From the NCBI RefSeq assembly GCF_988242995.1, contig NZ_OZ547043.1: 64,000 bases of DNA. One strand, 5' to 3'. The notes under the pieces are model-generated. The model was not told where the DNA came from and did not search any database. It worked only from the letters and a program-made list of their open reading frames with translations. A program made the position numbers and the translations under genes. Positions 18,717 through 59,771 of the stretch are shown here, piece after piece. Positions within the stretch are counted from its first letter, which is position 1; each line of letters opens with the position of its first letter.

Positions 18717-18914
18717 TTACTGCCCAGAGTTTTGTTGGTATTCATCTACCATTTTTTTGACAAGGCAAAACATTACAGAAATCACAATGCTTAGAAAAAA
18801 TCCCAGAGCCAGGCAAATGGTAGCAGGGTATTTATTTTTTATTTCTGGTGAGCTTATAGTGACACAGCCATCACCGTTCGGATACAATGACCAGTTCCTG
18901 GTCAGGTATATCAT
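18717..18914 (-). CDS. small membrane ORF overlapping the ykgH stop (separate coupled gene or 3' part of frameshifted ykgH)
   Basis: 65-aa ORF, TM helix ATICLALGFFLSIVISVMFCLV, ATGA start/stop overlap with upstream ORF. Confidence 0.35.
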   Translation of the reverse strand: MIYLTRNWSLYPNGDGCVTISSPEIKNKYPATICLALGFFLSIVISVMFCLVKKMVDEYQQNSGQ

Positions 18915-19267
18915 TTTTGTACAGCAGTTGGTAAATCTCTCTTATCTCCTGACCATTCCAGTTTTATTTCTCTGTTCTTGACATCTGGGCTGGTGTGAAA
19001 AAATGTAGTAATTCGCTGAATAACATCTTCAGTCATTGTGGTCTGACAGGCAAAGTTATTATTGCTATCACAGCTAACAAGTATGCCTGGTGTTGTTTGG
19101 TTTATTTTTAGACTGTAAGTCACTTTTATATTATCTTTATTGATATACAGAAACAACAGCACCATTGCCATACAGATAGCTATAATAAAAAGGATAACAC
19201 GAATCTTTTTCTTCAGATAAAATAAAATCTCAATCAGATCGATATCCTGTTTGATTTGTTCACTCAT
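18911..19267 (-). CDS. ykgH: membrane protein (ykgH-like), possibly the 5' part of a frameshifted gene
   Basis: 118-aa ORF with one TM helix (VILFIIAICMAMVLLFLYI); stop TGA overlaps the next ATG in an ATGA junction beside an A5 run. Confidence 0.5.
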   Translation of the reverse strand: MSEQIKQDIDLIEILFYLKKKIRVILFIIAICMAMVLLFLYINKDNIKVTYSLKINQTTPGILVSCDSNNNFACQTTMTEDVIQRITTFFHTSPDVKNREIKLEWSGDKRDLPTAVQK

Positions 19268-38075: not shown

Positions 38076-39560
38076 ATGGAAACCTTCCTTTCCCTTCGTC
38101 ATATCAACAAAACGTTTCATGCCACGCGAGCGCTGCGCGATGTTTCTCTCGACTTTATGTCGGGTGAGGTGCACTGCCTTGCCGGGCAAAACGGCTGTGG
38201 TAAATCGACGTTGATTAAAATTATGTCCGGTGTTTATCGCCCGGATGAGGGGGCGGAAATTACGCTTGGTGGGAAAAACTGGTCAAAGCTGACACCCGCC
38301 GCTTCGGTGGCGCAGGGGATTCAGGTGATTTATCAGGACCTCTCTTTATTTCCTAACCTGAGTGTCTGGGAGAATATCGCCGTGAATCACTATCACCACG
38401 GTCTGTTTGTTAACCGCCGTCGTCTGCGTGAGGTGGCGCAGGCGGCAATGACCAGTATTAACGTCACATTGCCACTGGATACGCTCGTTTCTGAGCTTTC
38501 AATTGCCCGCTGTCAGCTGGTGGCAATTTGCCGTGCACTGGCGCAGGACGCACGGTTGATCGTGATGGATGAACCAACCGCTTCGCTGACCCATCAGGAA
38601 GTGCAAGGGTTATTACAGGTGGTGCATCAATTGCGGGAACGCGGGATCTGCGTGGTCTTCGTCAGTCATCGTCTGGAAGAAGTGATGGAAGTTTCCGACC
38701 GTATTTCAGTGCTGAAAGATGGTGAGCTGGTCGGGACCTTTCCGGCCGCAGAGATGACCACAAAACAACTCAGTTTTCTGATGACCGGCCAGGAGTTCGA
38801 ATATCAGGTACGAGAGTTGTGGCAGGGAAAATCCAGCACCCCGGTGCTGGAGGTGCGTAATTTAAGTCGTCATGGGGAATATCAAAATATTAACTTGCGG
38901 GTGGAAGCGGGCGAAGTGGTGTCGATTGTTGGCCTGCTTGGTGCGGGGCGCACGGAATTATGTCTGAGTCTGTTTGGTATGACCCGACCGGATGCTGGTG
39001 AGATCCTCATCAACGGTCAGCCGGTTACACTGCATAGTAACCAGGACGCCATCCGCCACGGTATTGGTTATGTTTCGGAAGATCGCATGTCGCGCGGTTT
39101 GGTGATGGCGCAATCTATTGAAGACAACATCATTAGCACTGTTTTTCACAAGGTAAAAGATCGCTTCGGCTTTCTGAGTGAAGCTAAAGTGCGTGACCTG
39201 GTGGACAGGCTAATCAAGGCATTGACCATCAAAGTCTCTGACCCACATCTCCCGGTGAATACGCTTTCCGGGGGTAACGCGCAGCGAGTATCGATCGCCA
39301 AATGGCTGGCGATTGGGCCACGACTGTTGATTCTCGATAGCCCGACAGTCGGTGTTGATATCGCCAACAAAGCAGGAATATACGGCATTATCAGCGATCT
39401 GGCGGCTCATGGCATTGCGGTATTGATGATCTGCGATGAAATTGAAGAAGCGTGGTATCAAAGCCACCGGATTTTGGTAATGCAGAAAGGTCAGATCACC
39501 CATAGCTTCCTGCCTGACAGCAGTTCTCAGGCCAGGATTGCGGAGGTGGTAAATGGCTGA
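38076..39560 (+). CDS. ABC transporter ATPase with duplicated nucleotide-binding domains (RbsA-like)
   Basis: ORF 38061..39560; Walker A GQNGCGKST, signature LSGGNAQRV, Walker B LLILDSPT; start set to METFLSL. Confidence 0.8.
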   Translation: METFLSLRHINKTFHATRALRDVSLDFMSGEVHCLAGQNGCGKSTLIKIMSGVYRPDEGAEITLGGKNWSKLTPAASVAQGIQVIYQDLSLFPNLSVWENIAVNHYHHGLFVNRRRLREVAQAAMTSINVTLPLDTLVSELSIARCQLVAICRALAQDARLIVMDEPTASLTHQEVQGLLQVVHQLRERGICVVFVSHRLEEVMEVSDRISVLKDGELVGTFPAAEMTTKQLSFLMTGQEFEYQVRELWQGKSSTPVLEVRNLSRHGEYQNINLRVEAGEVVSIVGLLGAGRTELCLSLFGMTRPDAGEILINGQPVTLHSNQDAIRHGIGYVSEDRMSRGLVMAQSIEDNIISTVFHKVKDRFGFLSEAKVRDLVDRLIKALTIKVSDPHLPVNTLSGGNAQRVSIAKWLAIGPRLLILDSPTVGVDIANKAGIYGIISDLAAHGIAVLMICDEIEEAWYQSHRILVMQKGQITHSFLPDSSSQARIAEVVNG

Positions 39561-42855: not shown

Positions 42856-43671
42856 ATGATATCATTAAAAGCTCCGCACAATAATTTGATGCCATATACG
42901 CAACAAAGCATACTTAATACAGTAAAAAACAATCAGTTACCAGAGGATATCAAAAGCTCCCTGGTTTCCTGTGTCGATATATTCAAGGTTTTGATTAAAC
43001 AATATTATGATTATCCTTATGATTGTCGTGATGATTTAGTCGATGACGACAAACTCATTCATCTCATGGCTGCCGTACGAGACTGTGAGTGGTCAGACGA
43101 TAACGCACTCACCATAAATGTGCAGTTTAATGATTTCCCAGGATTTTATGACTGGATGGATTACCCTGATCACCCGGTTAAGTTTGTTTTTCGCATACTT
43201 GAAAATCAAAAAGGGACAGTTTGGGTATATGACCAGGATGATGCGTTTCTTGATATTAAAGCAAATGTGCAGGCTGGACGCTTTACCGGGCTTAAGAAAT
43301 TAGTGCAGTTTATCGATTCAGTGCGAACAGATTGCAAATGTATTCTTCTTGAACACCATATGCCTTTGCTGAGACTTTTCCCTAAAGGGAAAGAGTGTAT
43401 GCATGTGGAAAAATGGCTTCGCGAAATGTCGTCTATTCCGGAGACCGACGCACCCATTAAGCAGGCGCTTGCGCATGGATTATTATTACACTTAAAAAAT
43501 ATCTACCCTGTTTTTCCTGAATCACTGGTGATGTTATTGCTCTCTGTTCTGGACGTAAAAACATACAGAGATGATGCGCGATTAAATCAATGGATATCTA
43601 ATAGAGTGCAGGAATTAGGTGACAGATATTATCCTGTAAATAAGCACGTTAAAATCCGCTACACTCTTTAG
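42856..43671 (+). CDS. yahL: uncharacterised protein
   Basis: 271-aa ORF; no recognisable domain; name from recalled K-12 synteny. Confidence 0.65.
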   Translation: MISLKAPHNNLMPYTQQSILNTVKNNQLPEDIKSSLVSCVDIFKVLIKQYYDYPYDCRDDLVDDDKLIHLMAAVRDCEWSDDNALTINVQFNDFPGFYDWMDYPDHPVKFVFRILENQKGTVWVYDQDDAFLDIKANVQAGRFTGLKKLVQFIDSVRTDCKCILLEHHMPLLRLFPKGKECMHVEKWLREMSSIPETDAPIKQALAHGLLLHLKNIYPVFPESLVMLLLSVLDVKTYRDDARLNQWISNRVQELGDRYYPVNKHVKIRYTL

Positions 43672-43897
43672 TTCAGAAAGGGTTCCACCTGCGAGTTGTT
43701 ATTCCACCAGAGAGTGAATCGCAAAGCAGGTGATCATTTCATCTGTATATCCGTATGCCAAATGGCATTCCACCGCCTTTTTCGCCGATATTTTGTTGTG
43801 ATCGGCGACACTTCGCTTAAAAAAGCATCAGCAGTGGTTTCGCAGCTATACGGTGTATAAAAAATGATCTCATGCAGATGTTTTGTGAATGTGTGGG

Positions 43898-43926
43898 TTG
43901 ACATTCATATGAAAAAAATCATAATT
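43898..43926 (+). promoter_or_regulatory. sigma70-like promoter (TTGACA, 16-17 nt spacer, CATAAT) upstream of yahM
   Basis: ttgaca 43898-43903, cataat 43920-43925. Confidence 0.25.
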
Positions 43927-44083
43927 CCATCATGTTTGTGTGGGGTCTTTTCTGTATCTTACGCATCGCACTCAAGCCTGACAGAAAATATGCTGTAAGG
44001 CTCATATCAAAAACCGCCATTAGCTCATCAGGAAGAGCAGACGACAACCAGGATTGTTGTATGGTACGGGGTTCGAGGCCTCG

Positions 44084-44329
44084 ATGGCGGTCCAACTTTT
44101 CATAACTCTTCTGAATCAGATCCCCTTATTATCATCCCTGCAAAGTGGAACATTGCCATTGTTTGGCTATTCAGGACGGGTCAGAGCAATGAAAAAAGCC
44201 CACACAGGGGAGAGTGGGCTGAAATGGGAAGCTAAAGACTCAAGTAAACTTATCGGAAATAAGGACCACGCATTACGGGGGCTATCATCGCCGATGGTCG
44301 GGATTCGGCAAATCAGGTTGATTACGTAG
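44084..44329 (+). CDS. yahM: small uncharacterised protein
   Basis: ORF 44054..44329; start set to MAVQLF; weak evidence (ORF plus synteny). Confidence 0.4.
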   Translation: MAVQLFITLLNQIPLLSSLQSGTLPLFGYSGRVRAMKKAHTGESGLKWEAKDSSKLIGNKDHALRGLSSPMVGIRQIRLIT

Positions 44330-44345
44330 AGAGTAAATTATCTGC

Positions 44346-45017
44346 TCACCGCTGTGTCACCCCTTCGTAAATCAGGCGTAGCGCGAATACACCAATAATT
44401 GCACCAATAACCCGACTGGCAACGCGTTGCATACGCCCATAAGCACGACGCACAGCGGGCAAAGAAAACGCCTGACTAAGAAAAACGCGCCAGATAATTG
44501 ATGCGAGCACAATCCCCGCTCAGGCCATTAAACGTGCCCATGTTGGTGTTTCGGCATTTAATGTTACTGAGAAAATACTGATAAAAAATAAAACGGTTTG
44601 CGGGTTAGAGAGATCGGTAATTAATCCACGGCGAAAAAAGACATACCAGGGGGCGTTAATCGGTTGTTGTAGTGTGCTCATTTGCGGTGTTGACTGGCGG
44701 CGCATGCTGCACCACGCAAACCATAAGAGATAAGCGCCGCCGACGATTCTGATAAGCGAAAAAATCTCCTCACACTGCGTAATTAGCGTTGCAAGACCAA
44801 ACAAACCCAACCCGGAATAAAATGCATCGCCCAGCGCCACGCCCAGCCCGGTCAGCACCCCTGCGCGTCGACCGGAAGCCAGGCTGGTTTGTACTACCAC
44901 AAAGAGATTGGCTCCCGGATTAAAAAAAGTAATCACGAACAGTCCTACGGTCAGATAAACGGCGTGCAAAGGATCCATAGTGATTTCATCCATAAATAAG
45001 TGAAGTAACTTCATCAT
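44346..45017 (-). pseudogene. yahN: LysE/RhtB-family amino-acid exporter interrupted by an in-frame TGA
   Basis: ORF 44520..45017 ends ...TWARLMA-TGA; same frame continues 57 codons (AGIVLASIYLARFLSQAFSLPAVRRAYGRMQRVASRVIGAIIGVFALRLIYEGVTQR) to TGA at 44346-44348. Confidence 0.65.
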
Positions 45018-45163
45018 ATTTCTACCAAAAATAATCGGGTGCGAGAGAGATCACAAAGTGTCTTATTTCCGGTTACTGGCGTTTATGCCCTGACTGAACT
45101 AATTATTAATCAACCCAATAATGTGGGTGGGTGATAGTGTGATAACAACTCTGGAGCCGTAAT

Positions 45164-45439
45164 ATGAAAATAATCTCTAAAATGTTAGTCGGTGCGTTAG
45201 CGTTTGCCGTTACCAATGTCTATGCCGCAGAATTAATGACCAAAGCGGAATTTGAAAAGGTTGAATCGCAATATGAAAAAATAGGTGATATTTCAACCAG
45301 TAATGAAATGTCGACTGCAGATGCAAAAGAAGATTTAATCAAAAAAGCCGATGAAAAAGGGGCTGATGTGTTGGTACTGACCTCCGGTCAAACTGACAAT
45401 AAGATCCACGGCACGGCAAATATTTATAAGAAGAAGTAA
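45164..45439 (+). CDS. yahO: small periplasmic DUF1471 (YdgH/BhsA-like) protein
   Basis: 91 aa; signal peptide [23 protein letters not shown]. Confidence 0.8.
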
Positions 45440-45506
45440 TTCTGAATCCTATGTAAACATCCCCGATGCGTAAGTTTATCGGTGATCATCATCTATTGAA
45501 ATTTAT

Positions 45507-45536
45507 GCCGGATAAAGCGTTCGCGCTGCATTCGGC
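45507..45536. repeat. REP-like palindromic unit between convergent yahO and prpR
   Basis: gccggataaagcgttcgcgctgcattcggc, resembles REP consensus. Confidence 0.4.
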
Positions 45537-45539
45537 AGT

Positions 45540-47126
45540 TCAGTTTTTCAGCCGCCGCCAGAACGTCGTCCGGCTTATGCCTAAATAATTCGCCGCTGCT
45601 GTTTTATCGCCTTTAAATTTCTCCAGTGCCTGTTGTGGTGTCAGTAAGCGTGGAGCGGGAATTTTCGCCGACTCGCGCGCCAGTTCCGGCAGTAGCAGCT
45701 GCAAAAATTGCGGCGTTAAATCCGGCGTCGGTTCCACACTTAAAAACAGCGCCAGTCGCTCCATCATATTGCGCAGTTCACGAATATTGCCCGGCCAGTC
45801 GTAGTGCACCAGCACGGTTTCGCTTGCCTGTAACCCCTGGCGTAATGCGGCAGAAAACGGGGCGGAGAGCGCCGCCAGAGACACTTTCAAAAAGCTTTCC
45901 GCCAGCGGCAGAATATCCGCCACCCGCTCGCGCAGTGGTGGCAATTGCAGACGCAAAATACTCAGCCGATAAAACAGATCACGGCGAAAACGTCCTTGCT
46001 GCATATCTTCTTCCAGATTGCAGTGAGTGGCGCTAATGACCCGCACATCTAACGGAACAGGCTGATGCCCGCCGACGCGGGTGACCTCTTTTTCTTCCAG
46101 CACCCGTAACAGGCGAGTCTGCAAAGGTAGCGGCATTTCGCCAATCTCATCCAGAAACAGCGTACCGCCGTGGGCAATTTCGAACAGCCCGGCGCGACCT
46201 CCACGTCGCGAGCCGGTGAACGCCCCTTCCTCATAGCCAAACAGCTCTGCTTCCAGCAGCGATTCGGCAATCGCCCCGCAGTTGACGGCAACAAACGGAT
46301 GCGACTTTTTGCCCTGTCGCGCATCGTGGCGGGCAAAATATTCCCGATGAATCGCCTGGGCCGCCAGCTCTTTGCCCGTCCCCGTTTCCCCTTCAATCAA
46401 CACCGCTGCACTGGAGCGGGCATACAGCAAAATAGTCTGCCGTACCTGTTCCATCTGTGGTGATTGACCGAGCATATCGCCCAGCACGTAACGAGTACGC
46501 AGGGCGTTGCGGGTGGCATCGTGAGTGTTATGGCGTAACGACATGCGCGTCATATCCAGCGCATCGCTGAATGCCTGGCGCACGGTGGCGGCGGAATAGA
46601 TAAAAATTCCGGTCATTCCGGCTTCTTCTGCCAAATCGGTAATCAGCCCCGCGCCGACCACCGCTTCGGTGCCGTTAGCTTTCAGCTCGTTAATCTGCCC
46701 GCGCGCGTCTTCTTCGGTAATGTAGCTACGTTGGTCGAGGCGCAAATTAAAGGTTTTTTGAAACGCCACCAGCGCTGGAATGGTTTCCTGATAAGTGACA
46801 ACGCCGATAGAAGAGGTGAGTTTTCCGGCTTTTGCCAGTGCCTGTAACACATCGTAGCCGCTCGGTTTAATCAAAATAACTGGCACTGACAGGCGGCTTT
46901 TCAGGTACGCGCCGTTAGAGCCAGCAGCGATGATGGCGTCACAGCGTTCGCTTGCCAGTTTCTTGCGGATGTAGGTCACCGCTTTTTCAAAGCCAAGCTG
47001 GATAGGGGTAATGTTCGCCAGATGATCAAACTCGAGGCTGATATCGCGAAACAGCTCGAACAGGCGCGTCACCGATACCGTCCAGATAACCGGTTTGTCG
47101 TCATTCAGCCGTGGTGGATGTGCCAT
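45540..47126 (-). CDS. prpR: sigma-54-dependent enhancer-binding activator of propionate catabolism
   Basis: ORF 45540..47138; start set to [10 protein letters not shown] (528 aa); AAA+ sigma54-activator motifs ([14 protein letters not shown]) and C-terminal HTH. Confidence 0.9.
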
Positions 47127-47364: not shown

Positions 47365-48255
47365 ATGTCTCTACACTCTCCAGGTAAAGCGTTTCGCGCT
47401 GCACTGTCTAAAGAAAATCCATTGCAGATTGTCGGCACCATCAACGCTAACCATGCGCTGCTGGCGCAGCGTGCCGGATATCAGGCAATTTATCTCTCCG
47501 GCGGTGGCGTGGCGGCAGGGTCGCTGGGGCTGCCCGATCTCGGTATTTCTACTCTTGATGACGTGCTGACAGATATTCGCCGTATCACCGACGTTTGTTC
47601 GCTGCCGCTGCTGGTGGATGCGGATATCGGTTTTGGTTCTTCTGCTTTTAACGTGGCGCGCACCGTGAAATCGATGATTAAAGCCGGTGCGGCAGGATTG
47701 CATATTGAAGATCAGGTTGGTGCGAAACGCTGCGGTCATCGTCCGAATAAAGCGATCGTCTCGAAAGAGGAGATGGTGGATCGGATCCGCGCGGCGGTGG
47801 ATGCGAAAACCGATCCTGATTTTGTGATCATGGCGCGCACCGATGCGCTGGCGGTTGAAGGGCTGGACGCCGCGATCGAGCGTGCGCAGGCCTACGTTGA
47901 AGCGGGTGCCGAGATGTTGTTCCCGGAGGCGATTACCGAACTCGCCATGTACCGCCAGTTTGCCGATGCGGTGCAGGTGCCGATCCTCGCCAACATCACC
48001 GAATTTGGCGCAACACCGCTGTTTACCACCGACGAATTACGCAGCGCCCATGTTGCAATGGCGCTGTACCCGCTTTCAGCGTTTCGCGCCATGAACCGCG
48101 CCGCCGAACATGTCTACAACGTCCTGCGTCAGGAAGGCACGCAGAAAAGCGTCATCGACACCATGCAAACCCGCAACGAGCTGTACGAAAGCATCAATTA
48201 CTACCAGTACGAAGAGAAGCTCGACGACCTGTTTGCCCGTAGCCAGGTGAAATAA
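47365..48255 (+). CDS. prpB: 2-methylisocitrate lyase
   Basis: 296 aa; isocitrate-lyase/PEP-mutase family. Confidence 0.9.
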
Positions 48256-48299
48256 AACACAACGAAAAATATCTCGACCCTACAAATGACGAGGACAAT

Positions 48300-49469
48300 A
48301 TGAGCGACACAACGATCCTGCAAAACAGTACCCATGTCATTAAACCGAAAAAATCGGTGGCACTTTCTGGCGTTCCGGCGGGCAATACGGCGCTCTGCAC
48401 CGTGGGTAAAAGTGGCAATGATTTGCATTACCGAGGCTACGACATTCTTGATCTGGCGGAACATTGCGAATTTGAAGAAGTGGCGCATCTGCTGATCCAC
48501 GGCAAACTGCCGACCCGTGACGAACTCGCCGCCTACAAAACGAAACTGAAAGCCCTGCGCGGTTTACCGGCTAACGTGCGTACCGTGCTGGAAGCCTTAC
48601 CGGCGGCGTCACACCCGATGGATGTTATGCGCACCGGCGTTTCCGCGCTCGGCTGCACGCTGCCAGAAAAAGAGGGGCATACCGTCTCTGGCGCGCGGGA
48701 TATTGCCGACAAACTGCTGGCGTCACTTAGCTCGATTCTTCTCTACTGGTATCACTACAGCCACAACGGCGAACGCATTCAGCCGGAAACCGATGACGAC
48801 TCCATCGGCGGTCACTTCCTGCATCTGCTGCATGGCGAAAAGCCGTCGCAAAGCTGGGAAAAGGCGATGCATATTTCGCTGGTGCTGTACGCCGAACACG
48901 AGTTTAACGCCTCCACCTTTACCAGCCGGGTGATTGCGGGCACCGGCTCTGATATGTATTCCGCGATTATTGGCGCGATTGGTGCACTGCGCGGGCCGAA
49001 GCACGGCGGGGCGAATGAAGTGTCGCTGGAGATCCAGCAACGCTACGAAACGCCGGACGAAGCCGAAGCCGATATCCGCAAGCGGGTGGAAAACAAAGAA
49101 GTGGTCATTGGTTTTGGTCATCCGGTTTATACCATCGCCGACCCGCGTCATCAGGTGATCAAACGCGTGGCGAAGCAGCTCTCGCAGGAAGGCGGTTCGC
49201 TGAAGATGTATAACATCGCCGATCGCCTGGAAACAGTGATGTGGGAGAGCAAAAAGATGTTCCCCAATCTCGACTGGTTCTCCGCTGTTTCCTACAACAT
49301 GATGGGCGTTCCCACCGAGATGTTCACCCCACTGTTTGTTATCGCCCGCGTCACCGGCTGGGCGGCGCACATTATCGAACAACGTCAGGACAACAAAATT
49401 ATCCGTCCTTCCGCCAATTATGTTGGACCGGAAGACCGCCAGTTTGTCGCGCTGGATAAGCGCCAGTAA
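48300..49469 (+). CDS. prpC: 2-methylcitrate synthase
   Basis: 389 aa; citrate-synthase family. Confidence 0.9.
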
Positions 49470-57858: not shown

Positions 57859-58181
57859 CAGCCATGCGCAACCATCAAAAGACGTTCACGATGCTGCTGG
57901 TTCTGGTGCTGATTGGTCTTAATATGCGACCACTGCTCACCTCCGTCGGGCCACTGCTACCGCAATTGCGCCAGGCAAGCGGAATGAGCTTTAGCGTGGC
58001 TGCCCTGTTGACCGCTCTGCCGGTGGTTACCATGGGCGGGCTGGCGCTGGCCGGAAGCTGGCTTCATCAGCATGTCAGCGAACGTCGCAGCGTCGCCATC
58101 AGTTTGTTACTGATTGCCGTCGGTGCATTGATGCGTGAGCTTTACCCCCAAAGTGCGCTGCTGCTTAGCAGCGCACTGCTT

Positions 58182-58893
58182 GTGCACAGAAAACCCCCAG
58201 CTAGGCTGGGGGTTCCGGAAAGCTTTCAGCTTTGAGCCAGTTATTAAAACCCCTTTTGATTTGTTAAAACACCTTGCGGTCTGGCAACTGCAAGTGTCAA
58301 ACAAGAAATCAAAAGGGGGTCCCAATGGGGAACGAAAAGAGCTTAGCGCACACCCGATGGAACTGTAAATATCACATAGTTTTTGCGCCAAAATACCGAA
58401 GACAGGTGTTCTACAGAGAGAAGCGTAGAGCAATAGGCAGTATTTTGAGAAAGCTGTGTGAGTGGAAAAGCGTACGGATTCTGGAAGCTGAATGCTGTGC
58501 AGATCATATCCATATGCTTGTGGAGATCCCGCCCAAAATGAGCGTATCCGGGTTTATGGGATATCTGAAAGGGAAAAGCAGTCTGATGCTTTACGAGCAG
58601 TTTGGTGATTTGAAATTCAAATACAGGAACAGGGAGTTCTGGTGCAGAGGGTACTACGTCGATACAGTGGGTAAGAACACGGCGAAGATACAGGATTACA
58701 TAAAGCACCAGCTTGAAGAGGATAAAATGGGAGAGCAGTTATCGATTCCCTATCCGGGCAGCCCGTTTACGGGCCGTAAGTAACGAAGTTGGATGCAAAT
58801 GTCAGATCGTGTGCGCCTGTTAGGGCGCGGCTGGTAAGAGAGCCTTATAGGCGCATTTGAAAAACCTCCGGCTATGCCGGAGGATATTTATTT
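58182..58893 (+). mobile_element. IS200 (IS200/IS605 family) insertion element, ~712 bp
   Basis: Carries a 152-aa tnpA, left-end hairpin aaacccccagctaggctgggggtt and right-end hairpin cctccggctatgccggagg; precisely interrupts cynX with no evident target duplication. Confidence 0.85.
58325..58783 (+). CDS. tnpA: IS200 transposase TnpA (HUH Y1 transposase)
   Basis: ORF 58274..58783; MGNEKSLAHTRWNCKYHIVFAPKYRRQVFY...HIHMLVEIPPK (HuH motif)...YYVDTVG (catalytic Tyr region); matches recalled Salmonella IS200 TnpA. Confidence 0.9.
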   Translation: MGNEKSLAHTRWNCKYHIVFAPKYRRQVFYREKRRAIGSILRKLCEWKSVRILEAECCADHIHMLVEIPPKMSVSGFMGYLKGKSSLMLYEQFGDLKFKYRNREFWCRGYYVDTVGKNTAKIQDYIKHQLEEDKMGEQLSIPYPGSPFTGRK

Positions 58894-59771
58894 GGTGGAG
58901 TGGGGATCGGCATCATTCAGGCAGTGATGCCTTCGGTAATTAAGCGGCGGTTTCAGCACCGTACGCCACTGGTGATGGGGCTGTGGTCCGCGGCTCTGAT
59001 GGGCGGCGGTGGACTTGGTGCCGCCATTACGCCCTGGTTAGTTCAACATAGCGAAACCTGGTATCAAACACTCGCCTGGTGGGCGCTGCCTGCCGTTGTT
59101 GCGCTCTTTGCCTGGTGGTGGCAAAGCGCCCGCGAGGTCGCCTCTTCTCACAAGACAACAACCACTCCGGTTCGCGTGGTATTTACTCCCCGCGCGTGGA
59201 CGCTGGGTGTTTACTTCGGTCTGATTAACGGTGGTTACGCCAGCCTGATTGCCTGGTTACCCGCTTTCTATATTGAGATTGGTGCCAGCGCGCAGTACAG
59301 CGGTTCCTTGCTGGCATTGATGACGCTTGGGCAAGCAGCAGGGGCATTGCTGATGCCTGCTATGGCTCGCCATCAGGATCGGCGCAAACTTTTGATGCTG
59401 GCGCTGGCGTTACAACTGGTGGGGTTCTGCGGCTTTATCTGGCTGCCGCTGCAATTGCCGGTATTGTGGGCAATGGTGTGTGGGTTAGGTCTGGGCGGCG
59501 CATTTCCGCTCTGTTTGCTGCTGGCGCTCGATCACTCTGCGCAACCCGCTATTGCTGGCAAACTGGTGGCGTTTATGCAGGGGATCGGTTTTATCATCGC
59601 CGGGCTTGCCCCGTGGTTTTCTGGTGTGCTGCGTAGTATCAGTGGCAATTACTTGATGGACTGGGCGTTTCATGCGCTGTGCGTCGTTGGGCTGATGATC
59701 ATAACCCTGCGTTTTGCACCAGCACGTTTTCCGCAGCTGTGGGTCAAAGAGGCATGATGCGACGCTTGTTT

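What the first reader, a model, noticed from the sequence alone, without database searches (positions are those of the whole stretch)
44346..45017. yahN exporter gene interrupted by an in-frame TGA
The minus-strand ORF stops at TGA (44520-44522), yet the same frame continues for 57 more sense codons with membrane-helix character and ends at a second TGA at 44346. The combined 223-aa length fits the LysE/RhtB family, and I recall Trp (TGG) at this position in K-12. This is either a nonsense-mutation pseudogene, a sequencing error, or conceivably programmed UGA read-through.
Basis: partly seen in the sequence, partly recalled or inferred. Interest (0 to 1): 0.45.

Follow-up and report, generated by a model that had tools for sequence, protein, structure and literature searches.

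The report
Inherited nonsense mutation in yahN exporter
A non-essential E. coli amino-acid exporter gene (yahN) is cut short by a single TGG-to-TGA change that is already common and annotated as a pseudogene in the ST69-type lineage, so it is ordinary gene decay, not a new recoding signal.

Summary
On the minus strand, yahN (44346-45017) has an in-frame TGA at 44520-44522 (codon 166), followed by 57 more sense codons. K-12 has TGG (Trp) at this codon.

It is not a sequencing error. The same TGA is in at least 112 complete E. coli genomes, and the truncated product is indexed in 9,914 blocks of a public assembly collection. All seven complete-genome carriers whose RefSeq annotation I read are annotated "yahN pseudogene, internal stop". 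Six of them were compared over 12 kb and share one clonal background; one of these is named ST69.

The gene is not naturally short. Orthologues from ten other genera are 210-215 aa. Trp166 is invariant in 15 orthologues, and the lost tail holds 12 more invariant residues. In an AlphaFold model the stop removes most of one helix and all of the last helix.

Nothing supports programmed recoding. There is no SECIS-like fold or Rfam hit, and no orthologue has a stop here.

One small twist: the window is not the ST69-type clone. It matches that clone exactly only across 43141-44954, and the flanks differ by about 1.5-2.7%. A recombination junction therefore lies inside yahN.

Verdict: an ordinary, already-annotated nonsense pseudogene. 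Trace read-through by Trp-tRNA is possible but untested. Interest is low.

The parts
44346..45017 (-). yahN pseudogene, in the full extent of the 223-codon K-12 annotation. It encodes a LysE/RhtB-family amino-acid exporter.
   Evidence: 99.6% identical to the ST69-type allele and 9 nucleotide differences from K-12. TIGR00949 scores 238 bits with Trp restored. Synteny is yahL-yahM-yahN-yahO-prpR.
44520..44522 (-). Premature stop codon TGA at codon 166. The ancestral codon is TGG (Trp), and the single changed base is at 44520. The mRNA context is AUG GCC UGA G.
   Evidence: W166 is invariant in 15 orthologues down to 53% identity.
44520..45017 (-). 5' ORF that is actually translatable: 165 aa from the annotated start, or 152 aa from the conserved Met14.
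   Evidence: It covers only profile positions 1-134 of 185 in TIGR00949 and scores 179.1 bits, below the 183.95 cut-off.
44346..44519 (-). Untranslated 3' remnant: 57 codons plus the natural TGA stop. It encodes most of helix 159-183 and all of helix 187-222.
   Evidence: amino-acid identical to K-12; it holds 12 invariant residues (S173, W176, R177, L180, F184, S185, V189, R190, R191, G205, L215, G219). AlphaFold helices.
44976..44978 (-). ATG of Met14, the probable true start codon. Orthologues in other genera start here.
   Evidence: orthologues are 210-215 aa and align from M14. Some gene callers call the E. coli gene as 210 aa. The window-specific Q3K and V5L changes lie upstream of this start.
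44508..44510 (-). In-frame GTG at codon 170, 9 nt after the premature stop. It is the only candidate restart codon, opens a 54-aa ORF, and has only a weak GGGG Shine-Dalgarno-like run 3 nt upstream.
   Evidence: ORF 44346-44510; sequence. That it acts as a restart site is speculation, not shown.
43141..44954 (.). Haplotype block of 1,814 bp that is 100% identical to the ST69-type clone. It carries yahM, the tRNA-like element and codons 22-223 of yahN, including the TGA.
   Evidence: 0 differences here, against about 1.5% in the left flank and 2.7% in the right flank. MEI003 differs from the window at 19 sites inside this block.
44848..44954 (.). Interval holding the recombination junction inside yahN, between codons 21 and 57. 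To its left the window is ST69-type. From 44955 to about 46644 it is MEI003-type, with 1 difference.
   Evidence: SNP table.

Best explanation
This is yahN, a non-essential LysE/RhtB-family amino-acid exporter gene, inactivated by one G-to-A transition that turns the invariant Trp166 codon TGG into TGA.

Ribosomes terminate at codon 166. The product of 152-165 aa lacks most of the second-last helix and all of the last helix of the family fold, so the exporter is most likely non-functional. This loss of function is inferred, not shown.

The mutation arose once. It is fixed in the ST69-type clone, where RefSeq already annotates it as a pseudogene. It reached the window's otherwise different genome on a homologous-recombination tract of 1.8 kb or less, one end of which lies inside yahN. 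The downstream codons are still intact because the lesion is young, not because they are translated.
For: Shown:
- The TGA is at codon 166, and the downstream 57 codons are amino-acid identical to K-12.
- K-12 and 3,370 other complete-genome records have the TGG version of the 58-mer. 112 records have the TGA version.
- Seven complete-genome carriers were read, and all are annotated as pseudogene 'internal stop'. Six of them were compared over 12 kb and have identical flanks apart from one indel.
- Four further carriers from the assembly collection are at least 99.93% identical to the ST69-type locus.
- The parental protein, identical except for W at 166, is itself common (protein 4).
- Orthologues are 210-215 aa. 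W166 and 12 tail residues are invariant.
- The truncated product covers 134 of 185 profile positions and falls below the curated cut-off.
- An AlphaFold model puts W166 in helix 159-183, the most confident part of the model.
- The gene is dispensable. 231 of 5,426 genomes have no match to it. A Tn5 insertion in K-12 was viable (PMC11014345). Other independent frameshifted or truncated yahN products exist.
- The mosaic has 0 differences from the ST69 type in 43141-44954. Flanking divergence of 1.5-2.7% predicts 27-49 differences there.
Against: - No expression or phenotype data exist for this allele.
- The 57 downstream codons show no secondary decay. That is what a young lesion would show, but it is also what continued use would show.
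- UGA is the leakiest stop codon in E. coli and the near-cognate tRNA inserts Trp, so a trace of true wild-type protein is expected (PMC10570021).
- The allele's presence in two genomic backgrounds could hint at selection rather than drift.
Confidence: 0.86

Rival explanations
1. Leaky hypomorph. Near-cognate Trp-tRNA(Trp) reads UGA166 at a low rate and restores exactly wild-type YahN. The allele would then be a strongly down-tuned but still functional, condition-dependent exporter rather than a null.
For: - UGA read-through by Trp-tRNA(Trp) competing with RF2 is about 2% at 37 C and about 4% at 25 C in a K-12 reporter (PMC10570021).
- The ancestral residue is Trp, so read-through would give the native sequence.
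- The downstream codons are intact.
Against: - The reporter figures come from K-12, whose RF2 carries the defective A246T change (PMC7530605). Natural isolates should terminate better.
- The base after the stop is G. The inefficient +4 context documented for UGA is C (PMC5289835).
- No structure stimulates read-through.
- The intact tail is equally explained by a recent origin. The whole 1.8 kb block has zero differences between the two backgrounds.
Confidence: 0.08
2. Split gene. Ribosomes terminating at UGA166 restart at the in-frame GTG of codon 170. The resulting 165-aa and 54-aa fragments assemble into a working transporter.
For: - A GTG lies 9 nt after the stop and opens a 54-aa ORF to the natural stop.
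- That fragment still matches profile positions 141-185 of TIGR00949.
Against: - The break falls in the middle of a helix and would delete the invariant W166 and the near-invariant G168 and I169.
- The Shine-Dalgarno-like run is weak and only 3 nt from the GTG.
- No orthologue is organised as two ORFs.
Confidence: 0.02
3. The 165-aa truncated protein has an activity of its own, for example a dominant-negative partner of related exporters. Under this reading the allele is maintained and spread by selection.
For: - The allele is fixed in a very successful clone: 112 complete genomes and 9,914 index blocks.
- It also occurs in a second background through recombination.
Against: - Hitch-hiking in a pandemic clone explains the numbers without any selection on yahN.
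- Only one non-clonal carrier, the window itself, was found.
- Other lineages disrupt yahN at different positions, which points to simple loss.
Confidence: 0.03
4. Sequencing or assembly error, or programmed recoding (selenocysteine or a dedicated read-through signal).
For: None beyond the bare presence of an in-frame UGA.
Against: - Against error: the identical base is in at least 112 independent complete assemblies and thousands of other assemblies. It sits in a 1.8 kb block of perfect identity.
- Against recoding: the 81 nt around and after the UGA fold no better than shuffled sequence (z = +0.59).
- No Rfam family matched at E up to 1.
- All 15 orthologues have Trp, not a stop or Cys.
Confidence: 0.01

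Closest known systems
yahN pseudogene allele ('internal stop') of ST69-type E. coli, as annotated by NCBI PGAP in RefSeq (for example 118UI Eco118UI_RS01915 and O15:H18 strain ST69 NUI00_RS11695)
   Same: It has the same TGG-to-TGA change at codon 166. Its sequence is identical from codon 22 to the end of the gene and for a further 1.2 kb downstream through yahM.
   Different: The window's first 21 codons and everything upstream (yahO, prpR) are of a different, MEI003-like haplotype. That gives Q3K, V5L and one synonymous difference. The exact 165-aa product with K3/L5 is not in the 15-billion-protein collection.
[quoted passage not shown]
   Same: It is the same gene in the same synteny. It has 9 nucleotide differences in 672 and matches the same family models (annotation quoted in PMC11014345).
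   Different: K-12 has Trp166 and makes the full 223-aa (or 210-aa) protein. The window allele stops at codon 166. It also has S121N, Q3K and V5L.
Basal UGA read-through by Trp-tRNA(Trp) in E. coli (ordinary stop-codon leakiness)
   Same: The stop codon is UGA and the near-cognate tRNA would insert the ancestral Trp (PMC10570021).
   Different: There is no sign of a dedicated signal. The +4 base is G, there is no structure, and the stop is not conserved. Any read-through would be incidental.

Membership tests
LysE/RhtB exporter family (Pfam PF01810; NCBIfam TIGR00949 subfamily 2A76) | The whole-protein score is above the curated cut-off (183.95 bits) and the full 185-position profile is covered. 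| tested here: met
   For the gene with Trp restored: 238 bits, profile positions 1-185. Homologues carry PF01810.
LysE/RhtB exporter family (Pfam PF01810; NCBIfam TIGR00949 subfamily 2A76) | The product actually encoded contains the complete domain, with all helices of the fold. | tested here: not met
   The 165-aa product scores 179.1 bits, below 183.95, and covers profile positions 1-134 of 185. In the AlphaFold model most of helix 159-183 and all of helix 187-222 are missing.
yahN orthologue (E. coli b0328) | Conserved position between yahM and yahO-prpR, and near-identity to K-12 yahN. | tested here: met
   The gene order is the same in K-12, 118UI, MEI003, KE55 and IAI39. There are 9 nucleotide differences in 672 from K-12.
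Nonsense-mutation pseudogene | An in-frame stop at a position where intact orthologues have a sense codon, with recognisable coding sequence continuing after it. | tested here: met
   TGG to TGA at codon 166. The 57 downstream codons are identical to K-12. All 15 orthologues have Trp.
Nonsense-mutation pseudogene | Loss of function of the product. | not testable with these tools
   This is inferred from the loss of 12 invariant residues and two helices. No expression or transport data exist.
Selenocysteine recoding (bacterial SECIS-dependent UGA) | A stable stem-loop immediately 3' of the UGA, and Cys or Sec at the homologous position in relatives. | tested here: not met
   The fold is no better than shuffles (z = +0.59). 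There is no Rfam hit. Relatives have Trp.
Programmed stop-codon read-through | The stop codon is conserved across orthologues, with purifying selection on the extension. | tested here: not met
   The stop is confined to one haplotype of single origin and absent from all orthologues. Selection on the extension cannot be measured, because carriers are essentially identical.
Programmed stop-codon read-through | A leaky sequence context (for UGA in E. coli, +4 C). | tested here: not met
   The context is UGA-G. Inefficient termination is documented for +4C (PMC5289835).

The most novel reading that the evidence does not exclude
The W166-to-UGA allele may be a tuned-down exporter rather than a dead gene. 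Trp-tRNA(Trp) read-through would regenerate exactly wild-type YahN at a percent-level rate that depends on temperature and cAMP. The reduced export would be advantageous in extraintestinal E. coli. That would explain why the allele is fixed in the pandemic ST69-type clone and has also been moved into a second lineage by a short recombination tract.
Probability: 0.05. Interest if true: 0.35.

Novelty: already known. Interest (0 to 1): 0.1.

Why it matters
It matters little beyond annotation. The feature should be labelled as a yahN pseudogene (internal stop, W166*), as RefSeq already does for the same allele in ST69-type genomes.

There are two modest points of use:

- The allele is a clean single-base marker of the ST69-type haplotype at this locus.
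- The window shows that a nonsense allele can travel between E. coli lineages on a recombination tract under 2 kb that ends inside the gene. This is a small, concrete example of pseudogene spread by homologous recombination.

If the trace read-through product proved functional, it would be a natural example of a Trp-to-UGA hypomorph. Nothing found here points that way.

Tried and rejected
- Selenocysteine or structured recoding signal: folding the 81 nt around and after the UGA gave z = +0.59. An Rfam E-value scan of 43800-45600 gave only two irrelevant sub-threshold hits. Rejected.
- Naturally short gene: orthologues are 210-215 aa and conserved to the C-terminus. Rejected.
- Sequencing error: rejected by at least 112 independent complete genomes and 9,914 index blocks.
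- Finding the window's own lineage:
  - The best complete-genome match over 25 kb is only 98.9% (MEI003) or 98.6%.
  - The window's exact PrpR allele is widespread, but all 8 genomes shown have TGG and are at most 98.6% identical to the window.
  - The exact 165-aa window product is absent from the protein collection.
  - The source lineage therefore remains unidentified.
- Finding a second non-ST69 carrier: the four places shown for the 152-aa product are all ST69-type. Only 24 of 9,914 blocks were read, so other mosaic carriers may exist.
- Checking UMN026, which I recalled as the ST69 reference strain: its accession is not in the collection. The 'ST69' label rests on one strain's name plus identical flanks in the carriers compared. 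No MLST was done.
- Solved structures: no PDB sequence relative at E up to 1. Helix positions come from an AlphaFold model with mean pLDDT 73.
- Literature on yahN: a plain 'yahN' search returned author surnames. Narrowed searches found only table entries. Nothing was found on this allele.
- A dN/dS test on the untranslated tail was considered and dropped. The carriers read are identical in yahN, so it has no power.

Full report
**Observation**

Reading the minus strand of 44346-45017 gives a 165-codon ORF that ends in TGA at 44520-44522. The same frame then runs for 57 sense codons to a second TGA at 44346-44348, 223 codons in all. With Trp placed at the stop, the protein scores 238 bits on NCBIfam TIGR00949, the homoserine/threonine efflux (RhtB/LysE) subfamily, against a cut-off of 183.95. 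The gene lies between yahM and yahO-prpR, as yahN does in every E. coli genome I inspected.

**What the ancestral state was**

Aligned with K-12 BW25113, the window differs at 9 of 672 bases. One of these is codon 166: TGA in the window, TGG (Trp) in K-12. The 57 codons after the stop are amino-acid identical to K-12 and carry two synonymous differences.

**Is it an error or a private mutation?**

It is neither.

- Strain 118UI has the same TGA and differs from the window at only three bases, all within the first 21 codons.
- A 58-mer centred on the stop matches exactly in 112 complete-genome records. The TGG version matches exactly in 3,370. The figure of 112 is a lower bound, because carriers with a further SNP in the 58-mer would be missed.
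- I read the RefSeq annotation of seven carriers from human, chicken, cattle, kite, pig and duck sources. All are annotated by PGAP as yahN pseudogene, 'internal stop'.
- I compared six of them over 12 kb. Their flanks are identical apart from one indel between prpB and prpC. One of the six is named 'O15:H18 strain ST69'.
- The truncated product called from Met14 (152 aa) is indexed in 9,914 blocks of the public assembly collection. The four places shown are at least 99.93% identical to the ST69-type locus.
- The parental protein, identical but with Trp166, is itself common.

The mutation is therefore real, inherited, of single origin, very common in public data and already annotated.

**Is the gene naturally short?**

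It is not.

- Orthologues in E. albertii, Citrobacter, Salmonella, Enterobacillus, Pluralibacter, Edwardsiella, Hafnia, Edaphovirga, Yersinia, Entomohabitans and Providencia are 210-215 aa and align to the C-terminus.
- In an alignment of 15 orthologues reaching down to 53% identity, Trp166 is invariant. So are S173, W176, R177, L180, F184, S185, V189, R190, R191, G205, L215 and G219 in the lost tail.
- The 165-aa product covers only profile positions 1-134 of 185 and drops below the curated cut-off (179.1 against 183.95 bits).
- An AlphaFold model (mean pLDDT 73) places Trp166 in helix 159-183, its most confident segment, followed by helix 187-222. The stop therefore removes most of one helix and all of the last. 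No solved structure of a sequence relative exists.
- The same alignment shows that orthologues start at E. coli Met14. The window-specific Q3K and V5L changes therefore probably lie in the leader, not in the protein.

**Recoding**

- The RNA around and after the UGA folds no better than shuffled sequence (z = +0.59).
- No Rfam family matches.
- No orthologue has a stop or Cys at this position.
- The base after the stop is G. Inefficient termination at UGA is documented for +4C (PMC5289835).

Incidental read-through cannot be excluded. Trp-tRNA(Trp) competes with RF2 at UGA and gives about 2% (37 C) to 4% (25 C) read-through of a reporter in K-12 (PMC10570021). Here it would restore the native Trp. 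But K-12 has a defective RF2 (A246T; PMC7530605), so wild isolates should leak less.

A restart at the in-frame GTG of codon 170 is conceivable. It would split a helix, delete invariant residues, and has only a poor ribosome-binding site.

**The one twist: a mosaic background**

The window is not the ST69-type clone.

- Over 25 kb its best complete-genome matches are only 98.9% (MEI003) and 98.6%.
- A SNP table shows the window identical to the ST69 type only across 43141-44954 (1,814 bp, 0 differences). The flanks differ by about 1.5% on the left and 2.7% on the right, which predicts 27-49 differences in a block this size.
- From 44955 to about 46644 the window is instead MEI003-type, with 1 difference against about 50 from ST69.
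- The junction lies between 44847 and 44955, inside yahN between codons 21 and 57.

The nonsense allele therefore sits on a short recombination tract shared between two otherwise divergent lineages. The direction of transfer is unknown. Genomes that carry the window's exact PrpR allele all have TGG. No second mosaic carrier was found, though only a small sample of the index was read.

**Dispensability**

- 231 of 5,426 genomes have no match to the yahN region.
- A Tn5 insertion in K-12 yahN was viable (PMC11014345).
- The protein search returned other E. coli YahN products with frameshifts in the T-run, a frameshift after codon 166, and a truncation near residue 184. Some of these may be assembly errors.
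- In the window itself, yahN is one of three lesions among about 52 genes checked. The other two are cynX::IS200 and a 40-codon gap in ykgH.

**Verdict**

This is an ordinary nonsense pseudogene of a non-essential exporter, already annotated as such in the clone where it is fixed. Loss of function is inferred, not shown. The only mildly notable points are the intragenic recombination junction and the expectation that any read-through would regenerate the wild-type protein. Interest is low.

Noticed in passing
window 44014-44094 (+), between yahL and yahM: A tRNA-like element. ARAGORN calls it tRNA-Ser(GGA). The minimum-free-energy fold is a cloverleaf with a 7-bp acceptor stem, a D-arm, a T-arm (GGGGUUCGAGGCCUCG) and a 3' UCCA, but a non-canonical 7-bp anticodon stem with a 6-nt loop (z = -1.88). 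Rfam's tRNA model does not hit it. ARAGORN calls it at the same place in K-12, MEI003, KE55 and the ST69 strain, and none of the PGAP annotations I read lists it. It may be a decayed tRNA gene or an island attachment relic.
   Followed up: partly
window ~58182-58830 (insertion), within cynX 57864-59757 (+): cynX (cyanate transporter) is interrupted by an insertion of about 650 bp. The insertion carries an IS200/IS605-family transposase ORF (58274-58783; NF033573, 147.7 bits) and the Rfam STnc490 Hfq-binding RNA (58192-58315, 146 bits). This is a second pseudogene in the window.
   Followed up: partly
window ~18720-19267 (-), ykgH: Compared with the ykgH of strain WP8-S17-ESBL-12, residues 116-155 are missing and the flanking parts are contiguous. 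This is either a 120-bp in-frame deletion in the window or an insertion in the reference.
   Followed up: no
whole window, tested on 7001-57000: The window is unusually distant from all 5,426 complete E. coli genomes. Its best matches are 98.9% and 98.6% over 25 kb. It is a fine-scale mosaic, with stretches identical to MEI003 (38500-39500 and 44955-46600) alternating with ST69-type and lineage-specific stretches. The source lineage was not identified.
   Followed up: partly
window 44979-45017 (-), the first 13 annotated codons of yahN: The K-12-style annotated start (MMQLVHLFMDEIT-) is probably 13 codons too long. Orthologues in all other genera start at Met14, and some gene callers give 210 aa for E. 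coli too. The AlphaFold model has pLDDT below 50 for residues 1-13.
   Followed up: partly
window ~48250-48300 (prpB-prpC spacer), compared with L005-L010: ST69-type genomes carry about 500 bp of extra internally repeated sequence between prpB and prpC. It varies in length between strains and is annotated as a 179- to 210-aa hypothetical protein on the opposite strand. The window, MEI003 and KE55 lack it.
   Followed up: no
window 45506-45564 (+), between yahO and prpR: A sub-threshold Rfam match to naRNA4 (27 bits against a gathering score of 59.5, E = 0.028). I think it is probably a REP-type repeat, but I did not test this.
   Followed up: no
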